A DNA stretch of 19,836 nucleotides. Origin: a virus. The notes beneath the pieces are model-generated. The model saw only the letters and a program-made list of their open reading frames with translations, was not told the DNA's origin and ran no database searches. The stretch lies in the UHGV virus genome UHGV-0279810, one strand, 5' to 3'. How positions within the stretch are numbered: the first letter of the stretch is position 1; the number at the start of each line of letters is the position of its first letter. A program made the position numbers and the translations under genes. Positions 1 to 15,199 of this stretch are shown here, piece after piece.

Positions 1-150
1 CGAGGCAATTTGCGTAGTTCACGGTAAGCCCCCATTGTCGGCAGGCCAACCGTTTTACATTGCGGAATGCGCCACGTTGACGCCCATGCGGTAACAGCCG
101 CGGCAGTGTCTTTCAGCGGTCTGCCGGTACCGTTATCGAGCTGACCATCC
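1..150 (-). pseudogene. Inverted, diverged partial copy of a P2-type gene A segment (homologous to + strand 413-562); runs off the left window edge
   Basis: Reverse complement of 1-150 aligns base-for-base with 413-562 with about 9 mismatches, mostly at third codon positions. In the gene A reading frame on the + strand there is a TGA at 78-80, so this stretch is not a continuation of the downstream A ORF. Confidence 0.6.
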
Positions 151-179
151 TCAAGGATAATGATTTACAGGTCTACGGT

Positions 180-1310
180 TTGCGAGTCGTCGAGCCACAC
201 CACGACGGAACGCCGCACTGGCATATGATGCTTTTTTGTAATCCACGCCAGCGTAACCAGATTATCGAAATCATGCGTCGCTATGCGCTCAAAGAGGATG
301 GCGACGAAAGAGGAGCCGCGCGAAACCGTTTTCAGGCAAAACATCTTAACCGGGGCGGTGCTGCGGGATATATCGCGAAATACATTTCAAAAAACATCGA
401 CGGCTATGCACTGGATGGTCAGCTCGATAACGACACCGGCAGGCCGCTGAAAGACACTGCAGCGGCTGTTAGCGCATGGGCGTCAACGTGGCGCATCCCG
501 CAATTTAAAACGGTTGGCCTGCCGACAATGGGGGCTTACCGTGAACTACGCAAATTGCCGCGCGGCGTCAGCATTGCTGATGAGTTTGACGAGCGCGTCG
601 AGGCTGCACGCGCCGCCGCAGACAGTGGTGATTTTGCGTTGTATATCAGCGCGCAGGGTGGGGCAAATGTCCCGCGCGATTGTCAGACTGTCAGAGTCGC
701 CCGTATCCCGTCGGATGACGTTAACGAGTACGAGGAAGAAGTCGAGAGAGTGGTCGGCATTTACGCGCCGCATCTCGGCGCGCGTCATATTCATATCACC
801 AGAACGACGGACTGGCGCATTGTGCCGAAAGTTCCGGTCGTTGAGCCTTTGACTTTAAAAAGCGGCATCGCCGCGCCTCGGAGTCCTGTCAATAACTGTG
901 GAAAACTCACCGGTGGTGATACTTCGTTACCGGTTCCCACACCTTCTGAGCACGCCGCAGCAGTGCTTAATCTGGTTGATGACGGTGTTATCGAATGGAG
1001 TGACCCGGAGGTCGTGAGGGCGCTCAGAGGTGCATTAAAACACGGTCGGAGAACGCCAAATCGTCAGCAAAGAAACGGAAGCCCGTTAAAACCACATGAA
1101 ATTGCACCATCGGCCAGACTGGCCCGGTCGGAACGAATGCAAATTACCCGTATCCGCGTTGACCTTGCTCAGAACGGTATCAGGCCGCAGCGATGGGAGC
1201 TTGAGGCGCTGGCGCGTGGCGCGACCGTAAATTATGACGGGAAAAAATTCACGTATCCGGTCGCTGATGAGTGGTTCGGATTTCAAGATGAAGTGTCATT
1301 TTTTATATAA
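180..1310 (+). CDS. A: Replication initiation endonuclease gpA (rolling-circle Rep), 3' portion only; 5' part not contiguous in this window
   Basis: ORF translation has a His-hydrophobic-His motif (PHWHMMLF) followed about 50 residues later by paired tyrosines (GYIAKYISKN), as in HUH rolling-circle initiators. Position immediately upstream of the P2 tin/old slot. Frame is open back to 81 but no ATG/GTG start; the ORF track begins at a TTG. Confidence 0.8.
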   Translation: MRVVEPHHDGTPHWHMMLFCNPRQRNQIIEIMRRYALKEDGDERGAARNRFQAKHLNRGGAAGYIAKYISKNIDGYALDGQLDNDTGRPLKDTAAAVSAWASTWRIPQFKTVGLPTMGAYRELRKLPRGVSIADEFDERVEAARAAADSGDFALYISAQGGANVPRDCQTVRVARIPSDDVNEYEEEVERVVGIYAPHLGARHIHITRTTDWRIVPKVPVVEPLTLKSGIAAPRSPVNNCGKLTGGDTSLPVPTPSEHAAAVLNLVDDGVIEWSDPEVVRALRGALKHGRRTPNRQQRNGSPLKPHEIAPSARLARSERMQITRIRVDLAQNGIRPQRWELEALARGATVNYDGKKFTYPVADEWFGFQDEVSFFI

Positions 1311-1906: not shown

Positions 1907-2239
1907 ATGGAGTTGCCTATGTTACACAGAGCCCTTCGTTTAATAAGGCAATACCATAAAGAGTCATTGGTTGATTTATCAACATCTTTAGGTATTCCAA
2001 AAGAAAAAATAGTAGAACTCGAAAGTGGGGTTTGGTCGCCTACAATTGATGTTTTACAGCGTTACGCCTCCCATTTCGATATGCCGGTATCTTCTTTAGT
2101 ATTTTTTTCAGAATCGTTAGGTACGCAGGGGCGTTTATCTAAGCGTTTCCGTTTAAATTTAGCTGGTAAAGTATTAGATGTTATTGAGTGGGCGAATAAG
2201 AAAAATGAAAAGACGAATAAAACTCAAAATTTCCACTAA
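1907..2239 (+). CDS. XRE-family helix-turn-helix DNA-binding protein (about 106-110 aa)
   Basis: Translation contains a classic XRE HTH (SLVDLSTSLGIPKEKIVELESG...SPTIDVLQRYASHF). Alternative start ATG at 1919 has a better GGAG upstream. Its 3' end abuts or overlaps the RT gene. Confidence 0.7.
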   Translation: MELPMLHRALRLIRQYHKESLVDLSTSLGIPKEKIVELESGVWSPTIDVLQRYASHFDMPVSSLVFFSESLGTQGRLSKRFRLNLAGKVLDVIEWANKKNEKTNKTQNFH

Positions 2240-3155
2240 AAATAAATCTTACGATATAATTGATTCGCCGTTTTATAAAATGAGAAGTAAAAGGAAATTG
2301 GCTTCTTTATTGGGGGTTGATGTAGGGGATTTATCAACCTTAAAAAAAGATGAAGGCAATTATTCTATTTTTGAACAGTTATCTAAAAACGGAAAGCCAC
2401 GTAAGATACAAAAACCATTAGAAAAATTAGATGTGGTGCATACTCGTATTGCAAGTCTGCTATCGCGAATTACCTTGCCAGATTATCTACATTCTGGAAA
2501 GAAGGGATGTTCTAATGTTACTAATGCTAAAATCCACCTTAATAATGAAAGGTTGATGACAACCGACATCAGGGCTTTTTTTCCATCAACTACTAGAGAA
2601 ATGATATTTTCATTCTTTTTTTCTGTTATGAAGATGTCATCTGATGTTGCGGATGTATTATCGTATATATGTACTTGCTATGGGCGTTTGCCTACAGGTA
2701 GCAGGATTAGTATGCCTCTTGCATATTTTGCAAATTCAAGAATGTTCGGAGAAATACACCAACTTTGTAATAAACTACACGTAAATATGTCTGTTTATGT
2801 TGATGATCTAACTTTTTCAGGACAAAACGTTAATAGACTATTTTGTTCAGTGATTCGCAAAATAATAAATAAGCATGGTCATGTGATGCATGCGGATAAA
2901 ACAAAAATTTATAGTAGAGAAAAGCCTAAGTTGGTAACAGGTGTTATTGTTTTGGGCGGTTCTTTAAAAGTCAGGAATAAGCAGCATCTTTTAATGTCTC
3001 AAGAAATTGAATATTGGAAAATGATAAAGGATGCAGCGTGTGCAAGAGAAACTCATACTGCCAAAAAGTTATTTGGACGATTGCATTCTATGGGGGTAAT
3101 TGAACAACGTTATAGATCAAAGGTGCTTACATTAAAAGCAAGTACTGCACTTTAA
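2178..3155 (+). CDS. Retron-type reverse transcriptase (about 291-325 aa depending on start)
   Basis: RT motifs in the translation: DIRAFFPS (motif 4-like), SVYVDDLTFSG (catalytic YxDD), NAKIH (retron NAxxH motif) and KLVTGVIVLGG (retron VTG motif). Size matches retron RTs of about 300-320 aa. Possible starts at 2178, 2205 or 2280. Confidence 0.85.
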   Translation: MLLSGRIRKMKRRIKLKISTKNKSYDIIDSPFYKMRSKRKLASLLGVDVGDLSTLKKDEGNYSIFEQLSKNGKPRKIQKPLEKLDVVHTRIASLLSRITLPDYLHSGKKGCSNVTNAKIHLNNERLMTTDIRAFFPSTTREMIFSFFFSVMKMSSDVADVLSYICTCYGRLPTGSRISMPLAYFANSRMFGEIHQLCNKLHVNMSVYVDDLTFSGQNVNRLFCSVIRKIINKHGHVMHADKTKIYSREKPKLVTGVIVLGGSLKVRNKQHLLMSQEIEYWKMIKDAACARETHTAKKLFGRLHSMGVIEQRYRSKVLTLKASTAL

Positions 3156-3206
3156 TACAGGTTCCTGTAAGTGATTATATTGTTCTTAAGATACTTACTG
3201 ATGTTA

Positions 3207-3236
3207 TTTCCCCGTAGCCTTAATTTCTGCGGGGAA
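3207..3236. terminator. Hairpin between convergent RT and FRG genes (possible bidirectional terminator)
   Basis: TTTCCCCGTAG (3207-3217) pairs with CTGCGGGGAA (3227-3236) around a 9-nt loop; a T-rich run follows on the + strand only. Confidence 0.3.
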
Positions 3237-3263
3237 GTATGGAGATATTTTGGTTATGGAATG

Positions 3264-4628
3264 CTAATTTTTTAATGTGTATTTTTCTGTGATTAGTTTC
3301 ATTGTTCTTTCCAATCCTAAATATACAGTGGCATCAGTAATATTGAGCACGGCAAGTTCTTTTAAAATTTTCTTTTTGTCTCTGATGTTTATTTTTTCTG
3401 TCTTAAAGTTGTATGGTGAATTATCTGCCTGATCGTTGGATATCTCAGGAAAAACGGCGTTATTACCGAATAATAAAAAGGCACCGGATTGAGATGATAT
3501 TCTTTCATTATTTATCCTGCTTTTTACAAAAATTATCTTTTCCAAATCATCTGGATTTATTATGCTTTGAAAATATGGTTTTTCATGCTTTATGGATTCT
3601 AAGAGTTTAAGGCAAGCATGAGAGTTGTTAAAATCATTATTTCTTTCTTCGAAAGAAAGCTTGTCTTTCATGTCTTTTGATAGCATGCATAAATTAGATA
3701 TGCAACTGACAGTGTCGGAATCGAAAAATTTAATGTTCTCTCTGTGTGTTTTAAATATTATTACTTGACCATCGATATCGTTTTTGTCGGAATTTATACT
3801 ACTGCATGCAAAATAAAGTGCAATTAATGGATTTGATGTGATGTCAAGTAAGCGAGTAGGTATGCCATAATGTTGCATTCTTACAAGTTTATCAAGCATT
3901 GATGTATCATCAATGAATTCTGAGGGTCTTGCGCTCAATGCTTCTTTAACAAGGTTGATTTCATTATGTAGAAATTTATAGTTCCCATTTTCATATTTTC
4001 TGAAAAGAGATGGTGCAAGTTCATAAGATGAATCTGAATGACCCCTGTAAAAAATCTCCTCATCCATATCTGCTGTTATATGGAGAACTTTTTCAATAAA
4101 TTCTTGTAAACTATTTACGGTTAATAATGTGCTATCTTCGTCTGGGAGAGGCGCTGGACTGCTATCCACTTGTGCATTTTGGTTAATACCAAATGTCTTA
4201 AGGATATCATCTATATTTTTGTCTTTTATGGCCCAGTGTGTTCTTTTAAGGCCATAAGTTCCGAGTTCTAAACTGCTTTCAACACTTTTGGCGTCTGATA
4301 TTTTGATTTCATTGTGTGTATGGGTGATTGCAAATTGGAAGTTGATTTCTTTTCCCTTAATGTGAATATTTGAAATTCTTCCAATTCGTATGTCGACATA
4401 ATAAGGTTTTGCTCCCTCTATTTGATAAGCTTCACTCATGAATATTGTTGGGAGTTTTTCAAGATAAGATAGTACATTGCTGCTTAATGGGGATAGTTTT
4501 TTGCGAATACCATCGGAGGTGTTTTCAAACATTCGTGATAAAAGAAATGAGAATTCTCCATTATTTTGGCTGAATGGTTTCCAGTGGTCGTAGTGGTCGG
4601 GAAAACCACCCATAATTAAATTAATCAT
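3264..4628 (-). CDS. FRG-domain protein (454 aa), candidate defence protein; N- and C-terminal regions of unknown function
   Basis: Central region carries the FRG-domain signature: FYRGHSDSSYELAPSLFR ... MQHYGIPTRLLDITSNPLIALYFA. AT-rich, lies in the P2 tin/old slot, convergent to the RT operon. Start ATG at 4628 with a weak AGGT ribosome-binding site. Confidence 0.65.
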   Translation of the reverse strand: MINLIMGGFPDHYDHWKPFSQNNGEFSFLLSRMFENTSDGIRKKLSPLSSNVLSYLEKLPTIFMSEAYQIEGAKPYYVDIRIGRISNIHIKGKEINFQFAITHTHNEIKISDAKSVESSLELGTYGLKRTHWAIKDKNIDDILKTFGINQNAQVDSSPAPLPDEDSTLLTVNSLQEFIEKVLHITADMDEEIFYRGHSDSSYELAPSLFRKYENGNYKFLHNEINLVKEALSARPSEFIDDTSMLDKLVRMQHYGIPTRLLDITSNPLIALYFACSSINSDKNDIDGQVIIFKTHRENIKFFDSDTVSCISNLCMLSKDMKDKLSFEERNNDFNNSHACLKLLESIKHEKPYFQSIINPDDLEKIIFVKSRINNERISSQSGAFLLFGNNAVFPEISNDQADNSPYNFKTEKINIRDKKKILKELAVLNITDATVYLGLERTMKLITEKYTLKN

Positions 4629-4911: not shown

Positions 4912-4933
4912 TTTTAATGCAATTGCATTAAAA
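4912..4933. repeat. 22-bp perfect palindrome TTTTAATGCAATTGCATTAAAA about 20 bp left of cos
   Basis: Exact self-complementary sequence read directly; candidate protein-binding site or hairpin. Confidence 0.6.
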
Positions 4934-10110: not shown

Positions 10111-10854
10111 ATGACGAGTCCCGCACAGCGCCACATGATGCGGGTCTCGGCAGCGATGACCGCGCAGCGGGAAGCCGCCCCGCTGCGACATGCAACTGTC
10201 TATGAGCAGATGCTGGTTAAGCTCGCCGCAGACCAGCGCACACTGAAAGCGATTTATTCAAAAGAGCTGAAGGCCGCGAAAAAACGCGAACTGCTGCCGT
10301 TCTGGTTGCCGTGGGTGAACGGCGTGCTGGAGCAGGGCAAAGGTGCACAGGATGACATTCTGATGACGGTCATGCTGTGGCGTCTGGATACCGGCGATAT
10401 TGCCGGTGCGCTGGAGATTGCCCGTTATGCCCTGAAGTACGGTCTGACCATGCCGGGTAAACACCGCCGTACCCCGCCGTACATGTTCACCGAGGAGGTA
10501 GCGCTTGCGGCCATGCGCGCTCACGCTGCCGGTGAGTCTGTGGATACCCGCCTGCTGACGGAGACCCTTGAACTGACCGCCACGGCTGACATGCCTGATG
10601 AAGTGCGCGCAAAGCTGCACAAAATCACCGGTCTGTTTCTGCGTGACGGTGGTGATGCCGCCGGTGCGCTGGCTCACCTGCAACGTGCGACACAGCTCGA
10701 CTGTCAGGCAGGCGTCAAAAAAGAGATTGAACGACTGGAGCGGGAGCTGAAACCGAAGCCGGAGCCGCAGCCCAAAGCGGCCACCCGCGCCCCGCGTAAG
10801 ATCCGGAGCGTGACACCGGCAAAACGTGGACGCCCGAAAAAGAAAGCCAGTTAA
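10111..10854 (+). CDS. M: Terminase small (endonuclease) subunit gpM
   Basis: 247 aa with basic C-terminal tail (RGRPKKKAS); starts 4 nt after N stop. Confidence 0.9.
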   Translation: MTSPAQRHMMRVSAAMTAQREAAPLRHATVYEQMLVKLAADQRTLKAIYSKELKAAKKRELLPFWLPWVNGVLEQGKGAQDDILMTVMLWRLDTGDIAGALEIARYALKYGLTMPGKHRRTPPYMFTEEVALAAMRAHAAGESVDTRLLTETLELTATADMPDEVRAKLHKITGLFLRDGGDAAGALAHLQRATQLDCQAGVKKEIERLERELKPKPEPQPKAATRAPRKIRSVTPAKRGRPKKKAS

Positions 10855-10953
10855 CAACCGAATGCGCCCCGCGCCAGGGCGGCACGCCGGTCAGTGAGGG
10901 TGAATCACCTGACACTGCACCGGCGTCCACCGCCCGACTTTTCAGAGGTAGTC

Positions 10954-11463
10954 ATGATGACGCTGATTATTCCGCGAAAGGAGGCTCCCGTGTCCGGTGA
11001 GGGTACGGTGGTCATCCCGCAACCGGCAGGCGACGAGCCGGTGATTAAAAACACGTTCTTTTTTCCCGATATCGACCCGAAGCGCGTCCGGGAACGTATG
11101 CGCCTTGAGCAGACCGTCGCCCCCGCCCGTCTGCGTGAGGCCATCAAGTCAGGCATGGCGGAGACGAATGCGGAGCTGTACGAGTACCGCGAACAGAAAA
11201 TTGCCGCCGGTTTTACGTGTCTGGCGGACGTCCCGGCGGACGACATCGACGGTGAAAGCATCAAAGTTTTTTACTACGAGCGCGCCGTGTGTGCGATGGC
11301 GACCGCGTCGCTTTATGAACGTTATCGCGGTGTGGATGCCAGTGCGAAAGGCGACAAGAAGGCCGACAGCATTGACAGCACCATTGATGAGCTGTGGCGG
11401 GATATGCGCTGGGCAGTGGCGCGCATCCAGGGCAAGCCGCGCTGCATCGTGAGTCAAATCTGA
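10954..11463 (+). CDS. L: Head completion/stabilisation protein gpL
   Basis: 169 aa from MMTLIIPRKEAP; GAGG ribosome-binding site; internal start chosen over ORF-track 10894. Confidence 0.88.
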   Translation: MMTLIIPRKEAPVSGEGTVVIPQPAGDEPVIKNTFFFPDIDPKRVRERMRLEQTVAPARLREAIKSGMAETNAELYEYREQKIAAGFTCLADVPADDIDGESIKVFYYERAVCAMATASLYERYRGVDASAKGDKKADSIDSTIDELWRDMRWAVARIQGKPRCIVSQI

Positions 11464-11666
11464 TGAAGACCTTTGCGCTACAGGGCGACACGCTCGACGC
11501 CATTTGTGTCCGGTATTACGGGCGCACTGAGGGCGTGGTTGAGACCGTGCTCGCCGCAAATCCGGGACTGGCTGAACTGGGTGCGGTGCTGCCACACGGC
11601 ACCGCCGTCGAACTGCCCGACGTTCAGACCGCGCCCGTGGCTGAAACTGTCAATCTGTGGGAGTAA
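11463..11666 (+). CDS. X: Tail protein gpX (67 aa)
   Basis: MKTFALQGDTLDAICVRYYGR...; ATGA overlap with L stop; ORF-track N-terminal extension (11394) rejected. Confidence 0.85.
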   Translation: MKTFALQGDTLDAICVRYYGRTEGVVETVLAANPGLAELGAVLPHGTAVELPDVQTAPVAETVNLWE

Positions 11667-11669
11667 CGC

Positions 11670-11951
11670 ATGACAGCAGAAGAAAAAAGCGTCCTGTCGC
11701 TTTTCATGATTGGGGTGCTGATTGTTGTCGGCAAGGTGCTTGCCGGTGGTGAACCCATCACCCCGCGTCTGTTTATCGGGCGCATGTTGCTCGGTGGTTT
11801 TGTCTCGATGGTTGCCGGTGTTGTTCTGGTGCAGTTTCCTGACCTGTCACTGCCTGCGGTGTGCGGCATCGGCTCCATGCTGGGTATCGCCGGTTATCAG
11901 GTGATTGAGATTGCCATTCAGCGCCGCTTTAAGGGCAGGGGGAAACCGTAA
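11670..11951 (+). CDS. Y: Holin gpY
   Basis: 93 aa with hydrophobic transmembrane stretches, immediately before the lysozyme gene. Confidence 0.88.
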   Translation: MTAEEKSVLSLFMIGVLIVVGKVLAGGEPITPRLFIGRMLLGGFVSMVAGVVLVQFPDLSLPAVCGIGSMLGIAGYQVIEIAIQRRFKGRGKP

Positions 11952-13301: not shown

Positions 13302-13446
13302 CCCGGAGACGAACGGCGATTTAAGTGCCGATATCCGGCAGCTTGAGAACGCGCTGGCACGCTGTGCCAGCCAGGTAAAAATGATTAAACACTGTCAGGA
13401 CGAAAACGATGCTCAAACCCGACAGCCTGCGCAGGGCGCTGACTGA
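13156..13446 (+). CDS. lysC: LysC, Rz1-like outer-membrane lipoprotein spanin, begins in the +1 frame inside lysB and extends past it into R
   Basis: ATG at 13156 inside ORF 13039-13446; product MKTRIFAAGMALTCLMLCAGC... has a lipobox (LCAGC) and a Pro-rich region. Confidence 0.75.
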   Translation: MKTRIFAAGMALTCLMLCAGCTSAPPAPTPVIVHNACPKVSLCPMPGSDPETNGDLSADIRQLENALARCASQVKMIKHCQDENDAQTRQPAQGAD

Positions 13447-13876
13447 TGCCGTCACGGTGCTGAAAACTAACCCCGATATGCTGCGGATATTCGTGGATAA
13501 CGGGAGTATTGCTTCCACACTGGCGACGTCGCTGTCATTCGAAAAGCGTTACACGCTCAATGTCATTGTGACCGACTTTACCGGTGATTTTGACCTGCTC
13601 ATCGTGCCGGTGCTGGCGTGGCTGCGGGAAAATCAGCCCGACATCATGACCACCGACGCAGGTCAGAAAAAGGGCTTCACGTTTTATGCAGACATCAACA
13701 ATGACAGCAGCTTTGATATCAGCATCAGCCTGATGCTGACCGAGCGAACGCTGGTCAGTGAGGTGGACGGCGCACTGCATGTGAAGAATATCCCGGAACC
13801 TCCGCCGCCGGAGCCGGTCACCCGCCCGGTGGAGCTTTATATCAATGGCGAACTGGTGAGCAAGTGGGATGAATGA
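13409..13876 (+). CDS. R: Tail completion protein gpR
   Basis: 155 aa; AGGA ribosome-binding site; P2 order. Confidence 0.88.
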   Translation: MLKPDSLRRALTDAVTVLKTNPDMLRIFVDNGSIASTLATSLSFEKRYTLNVIVTDFTGDFDLLIVPVLAWLRENQPDIMTTDAGQKKGFTFYADINNDSSFDISISLMLTERTLVSEVDGALHVKNIPEPPPPEPVTRPVELYINGELVSKWDE

Positions 13877-14321
13877 GTTTAAGCGTTTTGAAGACCGGCT
13901 GACCGGACTTATTGAATCGCTGTCACCGTCAGGGCGTCGACGACTGAGTGCCGAACTGGCGAAACGTCTGCGTCAGAGTCAGCAGCGTCGGGTGATGGCA
14001 CAGAAAGCCCCGGACGGCACACCCTACGCGCCACGCCAGCAGCAGAGCGCCAGAAAAAAGACCGGTCGCGTTAAGCGAAAAATGTTTGCGAAACTTATCA
14101 CCAGTCGTTTTTTGCATATCCGCGCCAGCCCGGAACAGGCATCAATGGAGTTTTACGGCGGGAAGTCACCGAAAATCGCCAGCGTGCATCAGTTCGGTCT
14201 GTCGGAAGAAAACCGGAAAGACGGTAAGAAAATTGATTATCCGGCGCGTCCTCTGCTCGGCTTTACCGGTGAGGATGTGCAGATGATTGAAGAGATTATC
14301 CTGGCTCACCTCGACCGTTAG
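13869..14321 (+). CDS. S: Tail completion protein gpS
   Basis: 150 aa; overlaps R end; P2 order. Confidence 0.88.
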   Translation: MNEFKRFEDRLTGLIESLSPSGRRRLSAELAKRLRQSQQRRVMAQKAPDGTPYAPRQQQSARKKTGRVKRKMFAKLITSRFLHIRASPEQASMEFYGGKSPKIASVHQFGLSEENRKDGKKIDYPARPLLGFTGEDVQMIEEIILAHLDR

Positions 14322-14390
14322 TTGTGCCATTCCCGACACCTCATCGTCACATTGCCGCCGGTATGACCCGGCGGCATCCTTCCCGTTATG
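14322..14390 (+). promoter_or_regulatory. Late promoter region of gene V (TGT-N12-ACC activator-site-like element at 14323-14340) plus the V start codon
   Basis: TGTGCCATTCCCGACACC resembles the TGT-N12-ACA dyad I recall for P2 late promoters; ATG at 14388-14390 is followed immediately by inverted sequence. Confidence 0.4.
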
Positions 14391-14730
14391 ATCCGCCGAC
14401 GCAGACGGCGCGGGGTTATCGCCGGAATAAATCCCCGGCAGAACGAACGCCGTGTCGAGTTCACCGCCCACGGCCAGAATCAGCACCTGTTCCCCCACGG
14501 AAGGTGCCCACCATGTGCGCGAACGTCCGGCGCGATGGGTCAGCCACTGCAGCCAGTCGGTACACATGCCGCCGGTCTGCACACGGCAGCGACCGGCGTT
14601 AAGGTCGGTTTCGACGATAACGCCGGTGCGAATCATGTTGCGCAGTGCGCGCGCGAGTTCCTGAATATTTGCGAGAGTGTTCATAACGGGAAGGATGCCG
14701 CCGGGTCATACCGGCGGCAATGTGACGATG
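14342..14730. repeat. 49-bp perfect inverted repeat pair (14342-14390 and 14682-14730): V upstream region plus ATG, and its reverse complement
   Basis: Direct comparison of the two stretches; identical as reverse complements. Confidence 0.85.
14391..14684 (-). pseudogene. V: Baseplate spike gene V, N-terminal fragment (codons 1-98) in inverted orientation
   Basis: Minus-strand translation MNTLANIQELARALRNMIRTGVIV...GIYSGDNPAPSASAD, then reads into unrelated sequence; on the opposite strand to all neighbouring late genes. Confidence 0.75.
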
Positions 14731-14857
14731 CACATGGTGGGCACCTTCCGTGGGGGAACAGGTGCTGATTCTGGCCGTGGGCGGTGAACTCGACACGGCG
14801 TTCGTTCTGCCGGGGATTTATTCCGGCGATAACCCCGCGCCGTCTGCGTCGGCGGAT
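14391..14857. repeat. 127-bp perfect inverted repeat pair (14391-14517 and 14731-14857): V codons about 56-98 in both orientations, flanking a 213-bp spacer
   Basis: Reverse complement of 14391-14517 equals 14731-14857; mirrored ORF-track peptides on opposite strands confirm it (for example MSSSPPTARISTCSPTEGAHHV on + at 14452 and on - at 14796). Confidence 0.85.
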
Positions 14858-15199
14858 GCCCTGCATATCCGTTTCCCTGACGGGGCGGTGATTGAGTATG
14901 AACCCGAAACCAGTGCACTCACGGTAAGCGGAATTAAAACGGCCAGCGTGACGGCTTCTGATTCTGTTACTGCCACGGTGCCGGTGGTCATGGTGAAAGC
15001 ATCAACCCGCGTCACCCTGGACACACCGGAGGTGGTCTGCACTAACAAACTGACTACCGGCACGCTGGAAGTGCAGAAGGGTGGGACGATGCGCGGCAAC
15101 ATTGAACACACCGGTGGTGAACTCTCATCAAACGGTAAGGTGCTGCATACCCATAAACACCCCGGCGACAGCGGCGGCACAACCGGGAGCCCTCTATGA
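14731..15199 (+). pseudogene. V: Baseplate spike gene V, C-terminal fragment (from about codon 56 to stop); a GTG at 14750 could give a 149-aa N-truncated product
   Basis: Plus-strand translation ...WWAPSVGEQVLILAVGG...HTHKHPGDSGGTTGSPL, ending in an ATGA overlap with W; no in-frame ATG at the native N-terminus. Confidence 0.75.

What the first reader, a model, noticed from the sequence alone, without database searches (positions are those of the whole stretch)
14322..15199. Baseplate spike gene V disrupted by a perfect inverted duplication with interleaved inverted-repeat pairs
Relative to the expected order (upstream region U, V 5' part B, V middle C, V rest D), the window reads U+ATG, then rc(C), rc(B), rc(U+ATG), then C and D. 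So V codons 1-98 lie on the minus strand (14391-14684) and the rest on the plus strand. Two perfect inverted-repeat pairs result: 49 bp (14342-14390 / 14682-14730) and 127 bp (14391-14517 / 14731-14857). Recombination between the 127-bp arms would flip the 213-bp spacer and rebuild an intact V with its promoter. This may be an ON/OFF inversion switch for an essential tail gene, a duplication-inversion scar that inactivates the prophage, or an assembly artefact.
Basis: seen in the sequence. Interest (0 to 1): 0.6.

Follow-up and report, generated by a model that had tools for sequence, protein, structure and literature searches.

The report
Flipped 340-bp piece in gene V
A 340-bp piece covering the start of an essential phage tail-spike gene sits backwards between duplicated copies of its own ends; this is most likely a sequencing or assembly error, less likely a one-off mutation scar, and not a genetic switch.

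Summary
The window reads U + rc(U-B-C) + C + D, which gives two perfect inverted-repeat pairs of 49/50 nt and 127/128 nt. Undoing the rearrangement restores, base for base, the canonical 636-nt gene V of a P2-like prophage.

That prophage is otherwise about 99.98% identical to prophages in 12 complete E. coli genomes. None of 5,426 complete E. coli genomes or 50,697 phage records contains either junction. The three contig collections were searched for junction J1 only and lack it.

There is no invertase gene, and the arms are fresh copies of V sequence. Both junctions are blunt, with 1 nt of microhomology.

Flipping at the 127-nt arms would rebuild the V reading frame. It would carry only 46 nt of native upstream DNA and would lack the activator site of the late promoter pV.

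A third strand-switch junction lies at the window's left edge, at 150|151. Its arm is exactly 150 nt long and comes from a different allele of gene A. The next 95-193 nt carry that same foreign allele. The first ~300 nt therefore look like two 150-nt mates of one ~412-bp fragment joined together. All three junctions have fragment-scale offsets (213, 262 and 291 nt).

Verdict:
- Assembly or library artefact: about 0.62.
- Genuine, very recent inactivating scar: about 0.30.
- Programmed ON/OFF switch: about 0.03.

Interest is low.

The parts
14323..14338 (+). Dyad-like element TGT-N10-ACA. It is the positional equivalent of the annotated P2 pV activator (Ogr) binding site. It lies outside the duplicated segment U.
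   Evidence: its centre is 57.5 nt upstream of the V ATG, versus 57.0 nt for the dyad inside the annotated P2 site (AF063097 10239-10266). The sequence similarity to P2 is weak, so the assignment rests on position.
14342..14390 (+). U, copy 1: the last 46 nt of the S-V spacer plus the V ATG (14388-14390). It contains a 9-bp-stem hairpin at 14353-14376.
14391..14517 (-). rc(C): V nt 168-294 (codons 56-98, the first one partial), inverted copy. This is the left arm of the 127-nt inverted repeat. Junction J1 is at 14390|14391, with 1 nt of microhomology.
14518..14681 (-). rc(B): V nt 4-167. This is the only copy, and it is inverted.
14682..14730 (-). rc(U): inverted second copy of U, including the V ATG (14684-14682). 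Junction J2 is at 14730|14731, with 1 nt of microhomology.
14731..14857 (+). C: V nt 168-294, forward copy. This is the right arm of the 127-nt inverted repeat.
14858..15199 (+). D: V codons 99-211 plus the stop codon. It contains the beta-helix and the Apex domain with the HTHKH iron-binding histidines.
   Evidence: Pfam Phage_spike matches the 149-aa ORF 14750-15199. The domain layout of gpV is taken from bioRxiv 10.1101/2023.02.25.529910.
14166..14684 (-). Chimeric 172-aa ORF: gpV residues 1-98 (OB-fold domain) fused to 74 residues of antisense read-through into the S-V spacer and gene S.
   Evidence: Pfam Phage_base_V matches residues 19-86. No such protein is on record in public assemblies.
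1..150 (-). Context: an inverted copy of gene A nt 1392-1541 from a different allele (A'). It is joined bluntly at 150|151 to gene A nt 1130. The arm is exactly 150 nt long and ends at the window edge.
151..300 (+). Context: forward gene A sequence that still carries the A' allele (185 A, 245 A). From 344 onward the window follows the main allele at all 15 remaining diagnostic sites. The end of the A' tract lies somewhere between 246 and 343; 300 is the end predicted by the 2x150 read-pair model.
   Evidence: No complete E. coli genome carries this hybrid allele (best match 99.6%).

Best explanation
The inverted piece in V is most likely not present in the organism's DNA. It is best read as a fragment-scale strand-orientation error made during library construction, read handling or assembly.

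Two artefact geometries fit the V locus.
- A 340-bp bridging sequence U-B-C, about the size of one paired-end fragment, truly overlaps the left flank by 49 nt and the right flank by 127 nt. It was pasted in reverse orientation without trimming the overlaps.
- Alternatively, two mate-concatenation junctions were threaded into the contig.

What is shown:
- the structure itself;
- its uniqueness among related sequences;
- the blunt junctions;
- a second, independent strand-switch at the window's left edge, whose first ~300 nt behave like the two 150-nt mates of one ~412-bp fragment from a different P2-like element.

What is inferred:
- that the window starts at a contig end;
- that the same process produced the V junctions;
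- which software step was responsible.

The biological conclusion under this reading is that the prophage carries an ordinary intact gene V.
For: 1. Undoing the rearrangement gives the canonical sequence exactly. The rest of the window differs from 12 complete-genome prophages at 3 of about 19,350 aligned bases. Any real event would therefore be extremely recent.

2. J1 is absent from 5,426 complete E. coli genomes, 50,697 phage records, the GTDB species genomes, IMG/VR and the JGI metagenome contigs; J2 was searched only in the complete E. coli genomes and is absent there. All ten sampled public loci that encode the same gpL have a normal 211-aa V.

3. A third strand-switch junction lies 14 kb away, at 150|151.
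- The arm is exactly 150 nt long and ends at the window edge.
- It comes from another allele of gene A. It is 95% identical to its partner at 413-562 and 98.7% identical to the E. coli AH01 allele.
- Bases 185 and 245 just after the junction also carry that allele. All 15 later diagnostic sites follow the main allele.
- This hybrid allele exists in none of the 1,605 complete genomes with a match.
- The junction itself is absent from all collections searched.
- Together this is the pattern expected from a 2x150 read pair joined mate to mate (fragment 151-562, 412 bp) and attached to the contig through a 98-nt stretch that is identical in both alleles.

4. All three junctions are blunt, with 1, 1 and 0 nt of microhomology. 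Their offsets are 291, 213 and 262 nt. For 150-nt reads these correspond to fragments of 441, 362 and 412 bp. The inverted piece itself is 340 bp.

5. In the plastid and mitochondrial genomes surveyed in PMC4417113, in-vivo strand-switch (U-turn) rearrangements mostly use microhomology and were defined there by jumps under 50 bp.
Against: Neither the reads nor the source record could be examined. Five protein look-ups (two chimeric V-region ORFs and three truncated gene A ORFs) found nothing on record.

The V structure lies in the middle of the sequence and needs two coordinated junctions that return to the original strand. A pure unitig de Bruijn assembler cannot output this path, because it crosses the same branching node twice. 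Coverage-aware assemblers normally discard low-depth chimeric links.

The arms are perfect, and the layout is exactly what a genuine double template switch or a remodelled tandem inversion duplication would leave.

That the window begins at a contig end is an inference from the 150-nt arm and the odd window length. It is not a known fact.
Confidence: 0.62

Rival explanations
1. This is a genuine, very recent duplication-inversion scar. During replication a nascent strand switched to the opposite template 291 nt ahead, copied 340 nt backwards, then switched back 213 nt ahead. Equivalently, a tandem inversion duplication of U-B-C formed and its two palindromic joints were then trimmed asymmetrically. 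The result splits gpV between its OB-fold domain (minus strand) and its beta-helix/Apex part (plus strand). That knocks out an essential tail gene and leaves a defective prophage. RecA-dependent exchange between the arms could occasionally flip the segment, and a flip followed by deletion between the resulting direct repeats would restore the wild type.
For: - The layout U | rc(U-B-C) | C-D is the classic inversion flanked by inverted duplications, and no canonical sequence is lost.
- The arms are perfect and the junctions clean.
- The OB-fold and spike domains are separated exactly as described.
- V is essential: a P2 V amber mutant does not grow on a non-suppressor host (bioRxiv 10.1101/2023.02.25.529910).
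- A flip at either arm followed by deletion between the resulting direct repeats regenerates the canonical sequence exactly.
- Inactivating mutations in prophage lytic genes are expected to be tolerated or favoured in lysogens (general knowledge).
- Tandem inversion duplication and template switching are listed as recognised models in PMC4417113.
Against: - Only 1 nt of microhomology is present at each junction. E. coli lacks classical end joining, and template switches normally use short inverted homologies (general knowledge; PMC4417113 for organelles).
- There is no quasi-palindrome at either switch point.
- The structure is found in no other genome or phage record.
- A second strand-switch in the same 20 kb, made partly of a foreign allele with a 150-nt arm, is very hard to explain in vivo. 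It shows that this sequence contains at least one non-biological join.
- Two independent rare rearrangements in a prophage with essentially no point divergence from its relatives is improbable.
Confidence: 0.3
2. This is a functional ON/OFF inversion switch. The 127-nt arms serve as recombination substrates, so that a subpopulation of lysogens carries an intact V and can make infective particles while most cannot.
For: Flipping the 213-nt spacer between the 127-nt arms rebuilds the complete 636-nt V ORF. A 127-nt stretch of perfect homology is enough for RecA-dependent exchange (general knowledge).
Against: - There is no invertase or recombinase gene in the window (annotation of the near-identical prophage).
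- The arms are duplicated V sequence, not conserved short sites.
- The arrangement is absent from all of roughly 1,600 related E. coli records and 96 phage records, so it is not a conserved trait.
- The rebuilt V keeps only 46 nt of native upstream DNA and lacks the pV activator dyad at 14323-14338. In the flipped form the upstream ATG at 14388 opens an out-of-frame ORF, because the insert is 176 nt.
Confidence: 0.03
3. This is an amplification chimera in a whole-genome-amplified (MDA) or mixed-strain sample. Displaced 3' ends re-primed on nearby opposite strands and generated real but in-vitro inverted molecules, which were then assembled.
For: - Inverted chimeras and artificial palindromes are the typical product of whole-genome amplification (PMC6218980 abstract).
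- Two gene A alleles in one sequence would fit a mixed sample.
- There are three strand-switch junctions in 20 kb.
Against: From my own recollection of the MDA chimera literature, not read here, MDA junctions usually show several nt of complementarity. These junctions show 0-1 nt. The exact 150-nt arm at the edge points to read-pair handling rather than to amplification. Random chimeras rarely reach consensus depth.
Confidence: 0.05

Closest known systems
Canonical gene V (baseplate central spike, gpV) of P2-like phages (Peduovirus, e.g. P22H1 LR595870, P2 AF063097)
   Same: After the 340-bp piece is re-inverted and the two duplicates removed, the sequence is identical to V of Peduovirus P22H1-type prophages. 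It has the same 211-aa protein with the OB-fold and spike domains and the same neighbouring genes R, S, W, J, I and H.
   Different: The first 98 codons and 46 nt of leader are inverted, and 49 + 127 nt are duplicated. No related record shows this.
Tandem inversion duplication (TID; Kugelberg et al. 2010, as cited in PMC4417113) and double template-switch 'inversion with flanking inverted duplications'
   Same: A forward-inverted-forward copy order with asymmetric joints. The structure can be reverted or remodelled by homologous exchange.
   Different: Only U and C are duplicated, and B is present as a single copy. There are no short quasi-palindromes and no microhomology of 2 nt or more at the joints. 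There is no selective amplification context. Its reality in the DNA is unproven.
Site-specific invertible segments of phages (Mu G/Gin, P1 C/Cin, e14 P/Pin; named from general knowledge)
   Same: A DNA segment bounded by inverted repeats whose inversion would change which tail-gene sequence is expressed.
   Different: Those systems have a dedicated serine invertase and short conserved crossover sites, they switch tail-fibre C-termini, and they are conserved among relatives. None of this holds here.
Paired-end orientation or mate-concatenation and mis-oriented gap-fill errors in short-read assemblies (described here from first principles; no paper documenting them was found)
   Same: Blunt strand-switch joins, offsets equal to fragment length minus read length, an arm equal to one read length at a sequence end, and a foreign allele confined to about 2 x 150 nt.
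   Different: The V locus needs two coordinated joins in the middle of the sequence. Neither the assembler nor the reads are known.

Membership tests
Site-specific DNA inversion switch (Hin/Gin/Cin/Pin or tyrosine-recombinase type) | A dedicated invertase or recombinase gene next to, or acting on, the segment | tested here: not met
   The PGAP annotation of the near-identical prophage across the whole window lists no recombinase. The window's cargo genes are a retron RT, an HTH protein and an FRG-domain protein.
Site-specific DNA inversion switch (Hin/Gin/Cin/Pin or tyrosine-recombinase type) | Short conserved inverted crossover sites that are present in related elements | tested here: not met
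   The arms are 49- and 127-nt copies of V leader and coding DNA. Both junctions are absent from 5,426 complete E. coli genomes, and J1 is also absent from 50,697 phage records.
Site-specific DNA inversion switch (Hin/Gin/Cin/Pin or tyrosine-recombinase type) | Both orientations coexist in a population, and each orientation gives a defined expression state | not testable with these tools
   This needs reads from the source sample. In silico, the flipped form gives an intact ORF but without the pV activator dyad.
Tandem inversion duplication / replication template-switch rearrangement | Forward-inverted-forward copy order with no loss of sequence | tested here: met
   The window reads U | rc(C B U) | C D, and the canonical sequence is fully recoverable.
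Tandem inversion duplication / replication template-switch rearrangement | Junctions at short inverted (quasi-palindromic) homologies that prime the switch | tested here: not met
   Microhomology is 1 nt at each of the two V junctions (and 0 nt at the separate gene A junction), and there are no flanking inverted matches.
Tandem inversion duplication / replication template-switch rearrangement | The structure is physically present in the genomic DNA | not testable with these tools
   No reads are available, and the source contig was not found.
Read-pair / fragment orientation artefact of assembly | Blunt strand-switch joins with offsets in the range of a paired-end library (fragment length minus read length) | tested here: met
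   The offsets are 291, 213 and 262 nt and the inverted piece is 340 nt. Microhomology is 0-1 nt.
Read-pair / fragment orientation artefact of assembly | A read-length arm at a sequence end, with both mates from one source molecule | tested here: met
   Window 1-150 and window 151 to at least 245 both carry the A' allele. The main allele resumes by 344. The arm is exactly 150 nt long.
Read-pair / fragment orientation artefact of assembly | No genuine read support for the junctions, and single-copy depth over the duplicated arms | not testable with these tools
   This requires the raw reads of the source assembly.

The most novel reading that the evidence does not exclude
The structure is real and acts as a RecA-driven, recombinase-free 'safety catch' on an essential tail gene. 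A duplication-inversion locks V off, and rare exchange between the 127-nt arms restores V in a minority of cells. A further deletion between the resulting 49-nt direct repeats would restore the full wild type. The lysogen population would then keep a mostly inert prophage that can still be revived.
Probability: 0.03. Interest if true: 0.55.

Novelty: not a real feature. Interest (0 to 1): 0.1.

Why it matters
If this is an artefact, it matters only as a quality flag.
- This prophage should not be scored as defective on the strength of the V and A disruptions.
- The source assembly may contain more fragment-scale strand flips.
- The case also shows that such a flip keeps every canonical k-mer, so k-mer-based quality checks cannot detect it.

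If it is genuine, it would be a clean bacterial example of an inversion with flanking inverted duplications that inactivates a phage tail gene and can be reverted by homologous exchange. That would be a modest addition to known prophage decay routes, not a new kind of system.

Tried and rejected
1. Finding the source contig. Exact-protein look-ups were run for the 172-aa and 126-aa chimeric ORFs and for three possible starts of the truncated gene A. None is on record. The 149-aa C-terminal ORF matched only three short metagenome contigs. Two of them are canonical V cut by a contig end or variant (L003, L005), and one is an unrelated chimeric join (L004).

2. Finding the same junctions elsewhere. 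There were no matches in complete E. coli genomes, phage records, GTDB genomes, IMG/VR or JGI metagenomes.

3. A link between the gene A junction and the P2 replication origin. The annotated nick site is at nt 1859 of gene A (AF063097 29892), far from the joined positions 1130 and 1392. This idea was rejected.

4. The idea that the first 150 nt are a low-quality copy of the window's own A gene. Six of the eight differences are natural polymorphisms shared with other A alleles. The piece is therefore a different allele, not sequencing noise.

5. The idea that the hybrid A allele is a natural mosaic. No complete genome carries it.

6. k-mer explanations of the arm lengths. 127 equals the largest default SPAdes k, as far as I recall. 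However, a k-overlap model predicts equal overlaps on both sides, not 49 and 127, so I treat the match as possible coincidence.

7. Literature on unsplit SRA mates causing such contigs. Nothing usable was found. The Logan methods stream reads with fasterq-dump --fasta-unsorted and do not mention pairing. A unitig-type assembler could not output this path in any case.

8. The simple sigma-70 and terminator scans around the locus gave nothing informative.

Full report
**What is in the sequence**

The window is the late-gene half of a P2-like (Peduovirus) prophage. It runs from the middle of replication gene A, through cargo genes, to Q P O N M L X Y K lysA/B/C R S V W J I H and the start of G (annotation of a near-identical prophage).

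At 14342-14857 the repeat finder reports two perfect inverted-repeat pairs: 14342-14391 / 14681-14730 (50 nt) and 14391-14518 / 14730-14857 (128 nt).

Exact matching against a canonical prophage (L001, E. coli WP7-S17-ESBL-01) gives the following layout:
- U (14342-14390): forward.
- 14391-14517: rc(C).
- 14518-14681: rc(B).
- 14682-14730: rc(U).
- C (14731-14857): forward.
- D (14858 onward): forward.

So the window reads U + rc(U-B-C) + C + D. Joining U + B + C + D reproduces the canonical DNA exactly and gives the same 211-aa gpV.

**Consequences for the gene**

V codons 1-98 lie on the minus strand. They continue into 74 codons of antisense read-through, giving a 172-aa ORF at 14166-14684. 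That ORF retains the OB-fold domain (Pfam Phage_base_V, residues 19-86).

The plus strand keeps codons 57-211. The longest ORF there is 149 aa from a GTG at 14750, and it carries the Phage_spike domain.

[quoted passage not shown] A V amber mutant of P2 cannot grow on a non-suppressor host (bioRxiv 10.1101/2023.02.25.529910). If the arrangement is real, the prophage cannot build tails.

**How unusual the arrangement is**

Outside the rearrangement the window is almost identical to prophages in 12 complete E. coli genomes. There are 3 mismatches, all in the 14,241-nt left block; the 5,107-nt right block has none. All of those genomes have a canonical V.

Neither junction occurs in any of the 5,426 complete E. 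coli genomes; no place covers at least 80% of an 80-nt junction probe. J1 is also absent from 50,697 phage records, the GTDB species genomes, IMG/VR and the JGI metagenome contigs. Ten public loci that encode the same gpL all carry a 211-aa V.

The arrangement is therefore private to this sequence. Because the arms are perfect and the background is essentially undiverged, it is either extremely recent or not real.

**Is it a switch?**

No recombinase gene lies in the window. The cargo genes are a type VI retron pair and an FRG-domain gene. The arms are duplicated V leader and coding DNA, not short conserved sites.

I built both possible flips in silico.
Only 46 nt of native upstream DNA comes with it.
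- Exchange between the 49-nt arms gives a 126-aa truncated product.

In the P2 GenBank record the pV activator-binding site lies 69-42 nt upstream of the V ATG, and the transcription start is placed on the ATG. The P2 site contains a TGT-N11-ACA dyad centred 57 nt upstream of the ATG. The window has TGT-N10-ACA at 14323-14338, centred 57.5 nt upstream. That element lies outside U.

The rebuilt V would therefore not have its own activator site. It would sit 176 nt downstream of pV, behind an antisense V fragment and an out-of-frame upstream ATG.

Each flip creates direct repeats, and deletion between those repeats regenerates the wild type exactly. A real structure would thus be revertible in two steps, but nothing suggests this has been selected for. 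I rate a programmed switch at about 3%.

**The decisive context: a third strand-switch at the window's left edge**

A BLAST of the window against the reference and against itself showed that bases 1-150 are the reverse complement of bases 413-562, joined directly to base 151. This junction lies inside gene A and puts stop codons in the A reading frame. Four properties stand out.

1. The arm is exactly 150 nt long and ends at the first base of the window.

2. It is only 95% identical to its partner. Six of the eight differences are natural polymorphisms found in other A alleles. The best match is 98.7%, to E. coli AH01. The arm therefore comes from a second P2-like element (A').

3. The forward sequence just after the junction also carries the A' allele, at positions 185 and 245. 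From 344 onward the window follows the main allele at all 15 remaining diagnostic sites. No complete E. coli genome has this hybrid allele; the best match is 99.6%.

4. The junction has no microhomology. It is absent from all collections searched. It is also not near the P2 origin nick, which is at nt 1859 of gene A.

The simplest reading is that bases 1-150 and 151-300 are the two 150-nt mates of one 412-bp fragment (151-562) from a second P2-like element, joined mate to mate. This piece would be attached to the main contig through the 98-nt stretch (246-343) that is identical in both alleles. An in-vivo origin would need three things close together:
- a fold-back between two different prophages at non-homologous positions;
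- a homologous crossover within about 100-190 nt of that fold-back;
- a window boundary that happens to fall exactly 150 nt from the junction.

**Linking this to V**

The two V junctions share the signature of the gene A junction. All are blunt strand switches, with 1 and 1 nt of microhomology in V and 0 nt in A. The offsets are fragment-scale: 291 and 213 nt in V, 262 nt in A. For 150-nt reads these correspond to fragments of 441, 362 and 412 bp. The inverted piece is 340 bp, itself the size of one fragment.

The V structure is exactly what results if a 340-bp bridging sequence, which overlaps the left flank by 49 nt and the right flank by 127 nt, is inserted in the wrong orientation without trimming. 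That would be a single error producing both junctions.

By contrast, in the plastid and mitochondrial genomes surveyed in PMC4417113, in-vivo strand-switch rearrangements mostly use microhomologies and were defined there by jumps shorter than 50 bp. E. coli also lacks a classical blunt end-joining pathway (general knowledge).

**Why I am not more certain**

- I could not find the source record or any reads.
- The V structure is internal, balanced and perfect, as a real double template switch or a remodelled tandem inversion duplication would be.
- A pure unitig assembler cannot emit this path, because it crosses the same branching node twice. Coverage-aware assemblers usually remove weak chimeric links. 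The exact software route is therefore unknown.
- That the window starts at a contig end is inferred, not known.

Every canonical k-mer is retained in the rearranged form. Only reads that span pre-U/U/B or B/C/D can distinguish the two forms.

**Verdict**

| Explanation | Probability |
|---|---|
| Artefact of read-pair or fragment orientation in assembly or library | about 0.62 |
| Genuine, very recent inactivating duplication-inversion scar | about 0.30 |
| Whole-genome-amplification chimera | about 0.05 |
| Programmed ON/OFF switch | about 0.03 |

In none of these readings is this a new kind of genetic element. Interest is low (0.1). The practical message is to check the reads before calling this prophage defective.

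Noticed in passing
window 1-343: A second inverted duplication lies at the very start of the window. Bases 1-150 are rc(413-562) but come from a different gene A allele. Bases 151-245 carry the same foreign allele, and the main allele resumes by 344. The junction is blunt, disrupts gene A, and looks like a concatenated 2x150 read pair.
   Followed up: yes
window 1907-4628: Defence cargo lies in the P2 hot spot between A and Q. On the plus strand there is a type VI retron pair: HTH_VI (PADLOC 7e-30) at 1907-2239 and RT_VI (1e-105) at 2178-3155. On the minus strand at 3264-4628 there is an FRG-domain protein that matches the PADLOC candidate system PDC-S15 (7e-98). I did not look for the retron's msr/msd RNA.
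   Followed up: partly
S-V spacer: window 14322-14387; L007 (P2) 1140-1925; L012/L017 13449-14528; L016 13440-14225: The short spacer between S and V is a cargo insertion hot spot in relatives. P2 carries orf30 there, two loci carry a RelA_SpoT-domain gene, and one carries a 261-aa gene, all on the opposite strand. The window has the empty 66-nt form.
   Followed up: partly
window 11218: A single T (C in the 12 near-identical prophages) changes gpL R89 to C. The C89 form is the allele widespread in other P2-like phages (1011 collection blocks). No complete E. coli genome matches 10700-11700 at 100%. This may be another trace of allele mixing, or a private SNP.
   Followed up: partly
window 4912-4933: A perfect 22-nt palindrome lies in the spacer between the FRG-domain gene and the portal gene Q.
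   Followed up: no
L004 (ENA ERZ28633723 scaffold_105046) 1-64: This metagenome scaffold joins 55 nt matching window 13556-13610 (within the R gene, 13409-13876) directly to mid-V. It is either a deletion variant or a chimeric assembly, and it shows that odd joins in this region occur in public assemblies.
   Followed up: no
L007 (P2 AF063097) 2009: The P2 GenBank record places the V-operon transcription start on the first base of the V ATG. That would make V a leaderless message, and the window has no Shine-Dalgarno sequence before the V ATG either.
   Followed up: no
window 14353-14376: A 9-bp-stem hairpin (TGCCGCCGG-TATGAC-CCGGCGGCA) sits almost at the centre of the duplicated 49-nt U segment. 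It is not followed by a T run. The junctions lie 11 and 14 nt away from it, so it does not explain them.
   Followed up: partly
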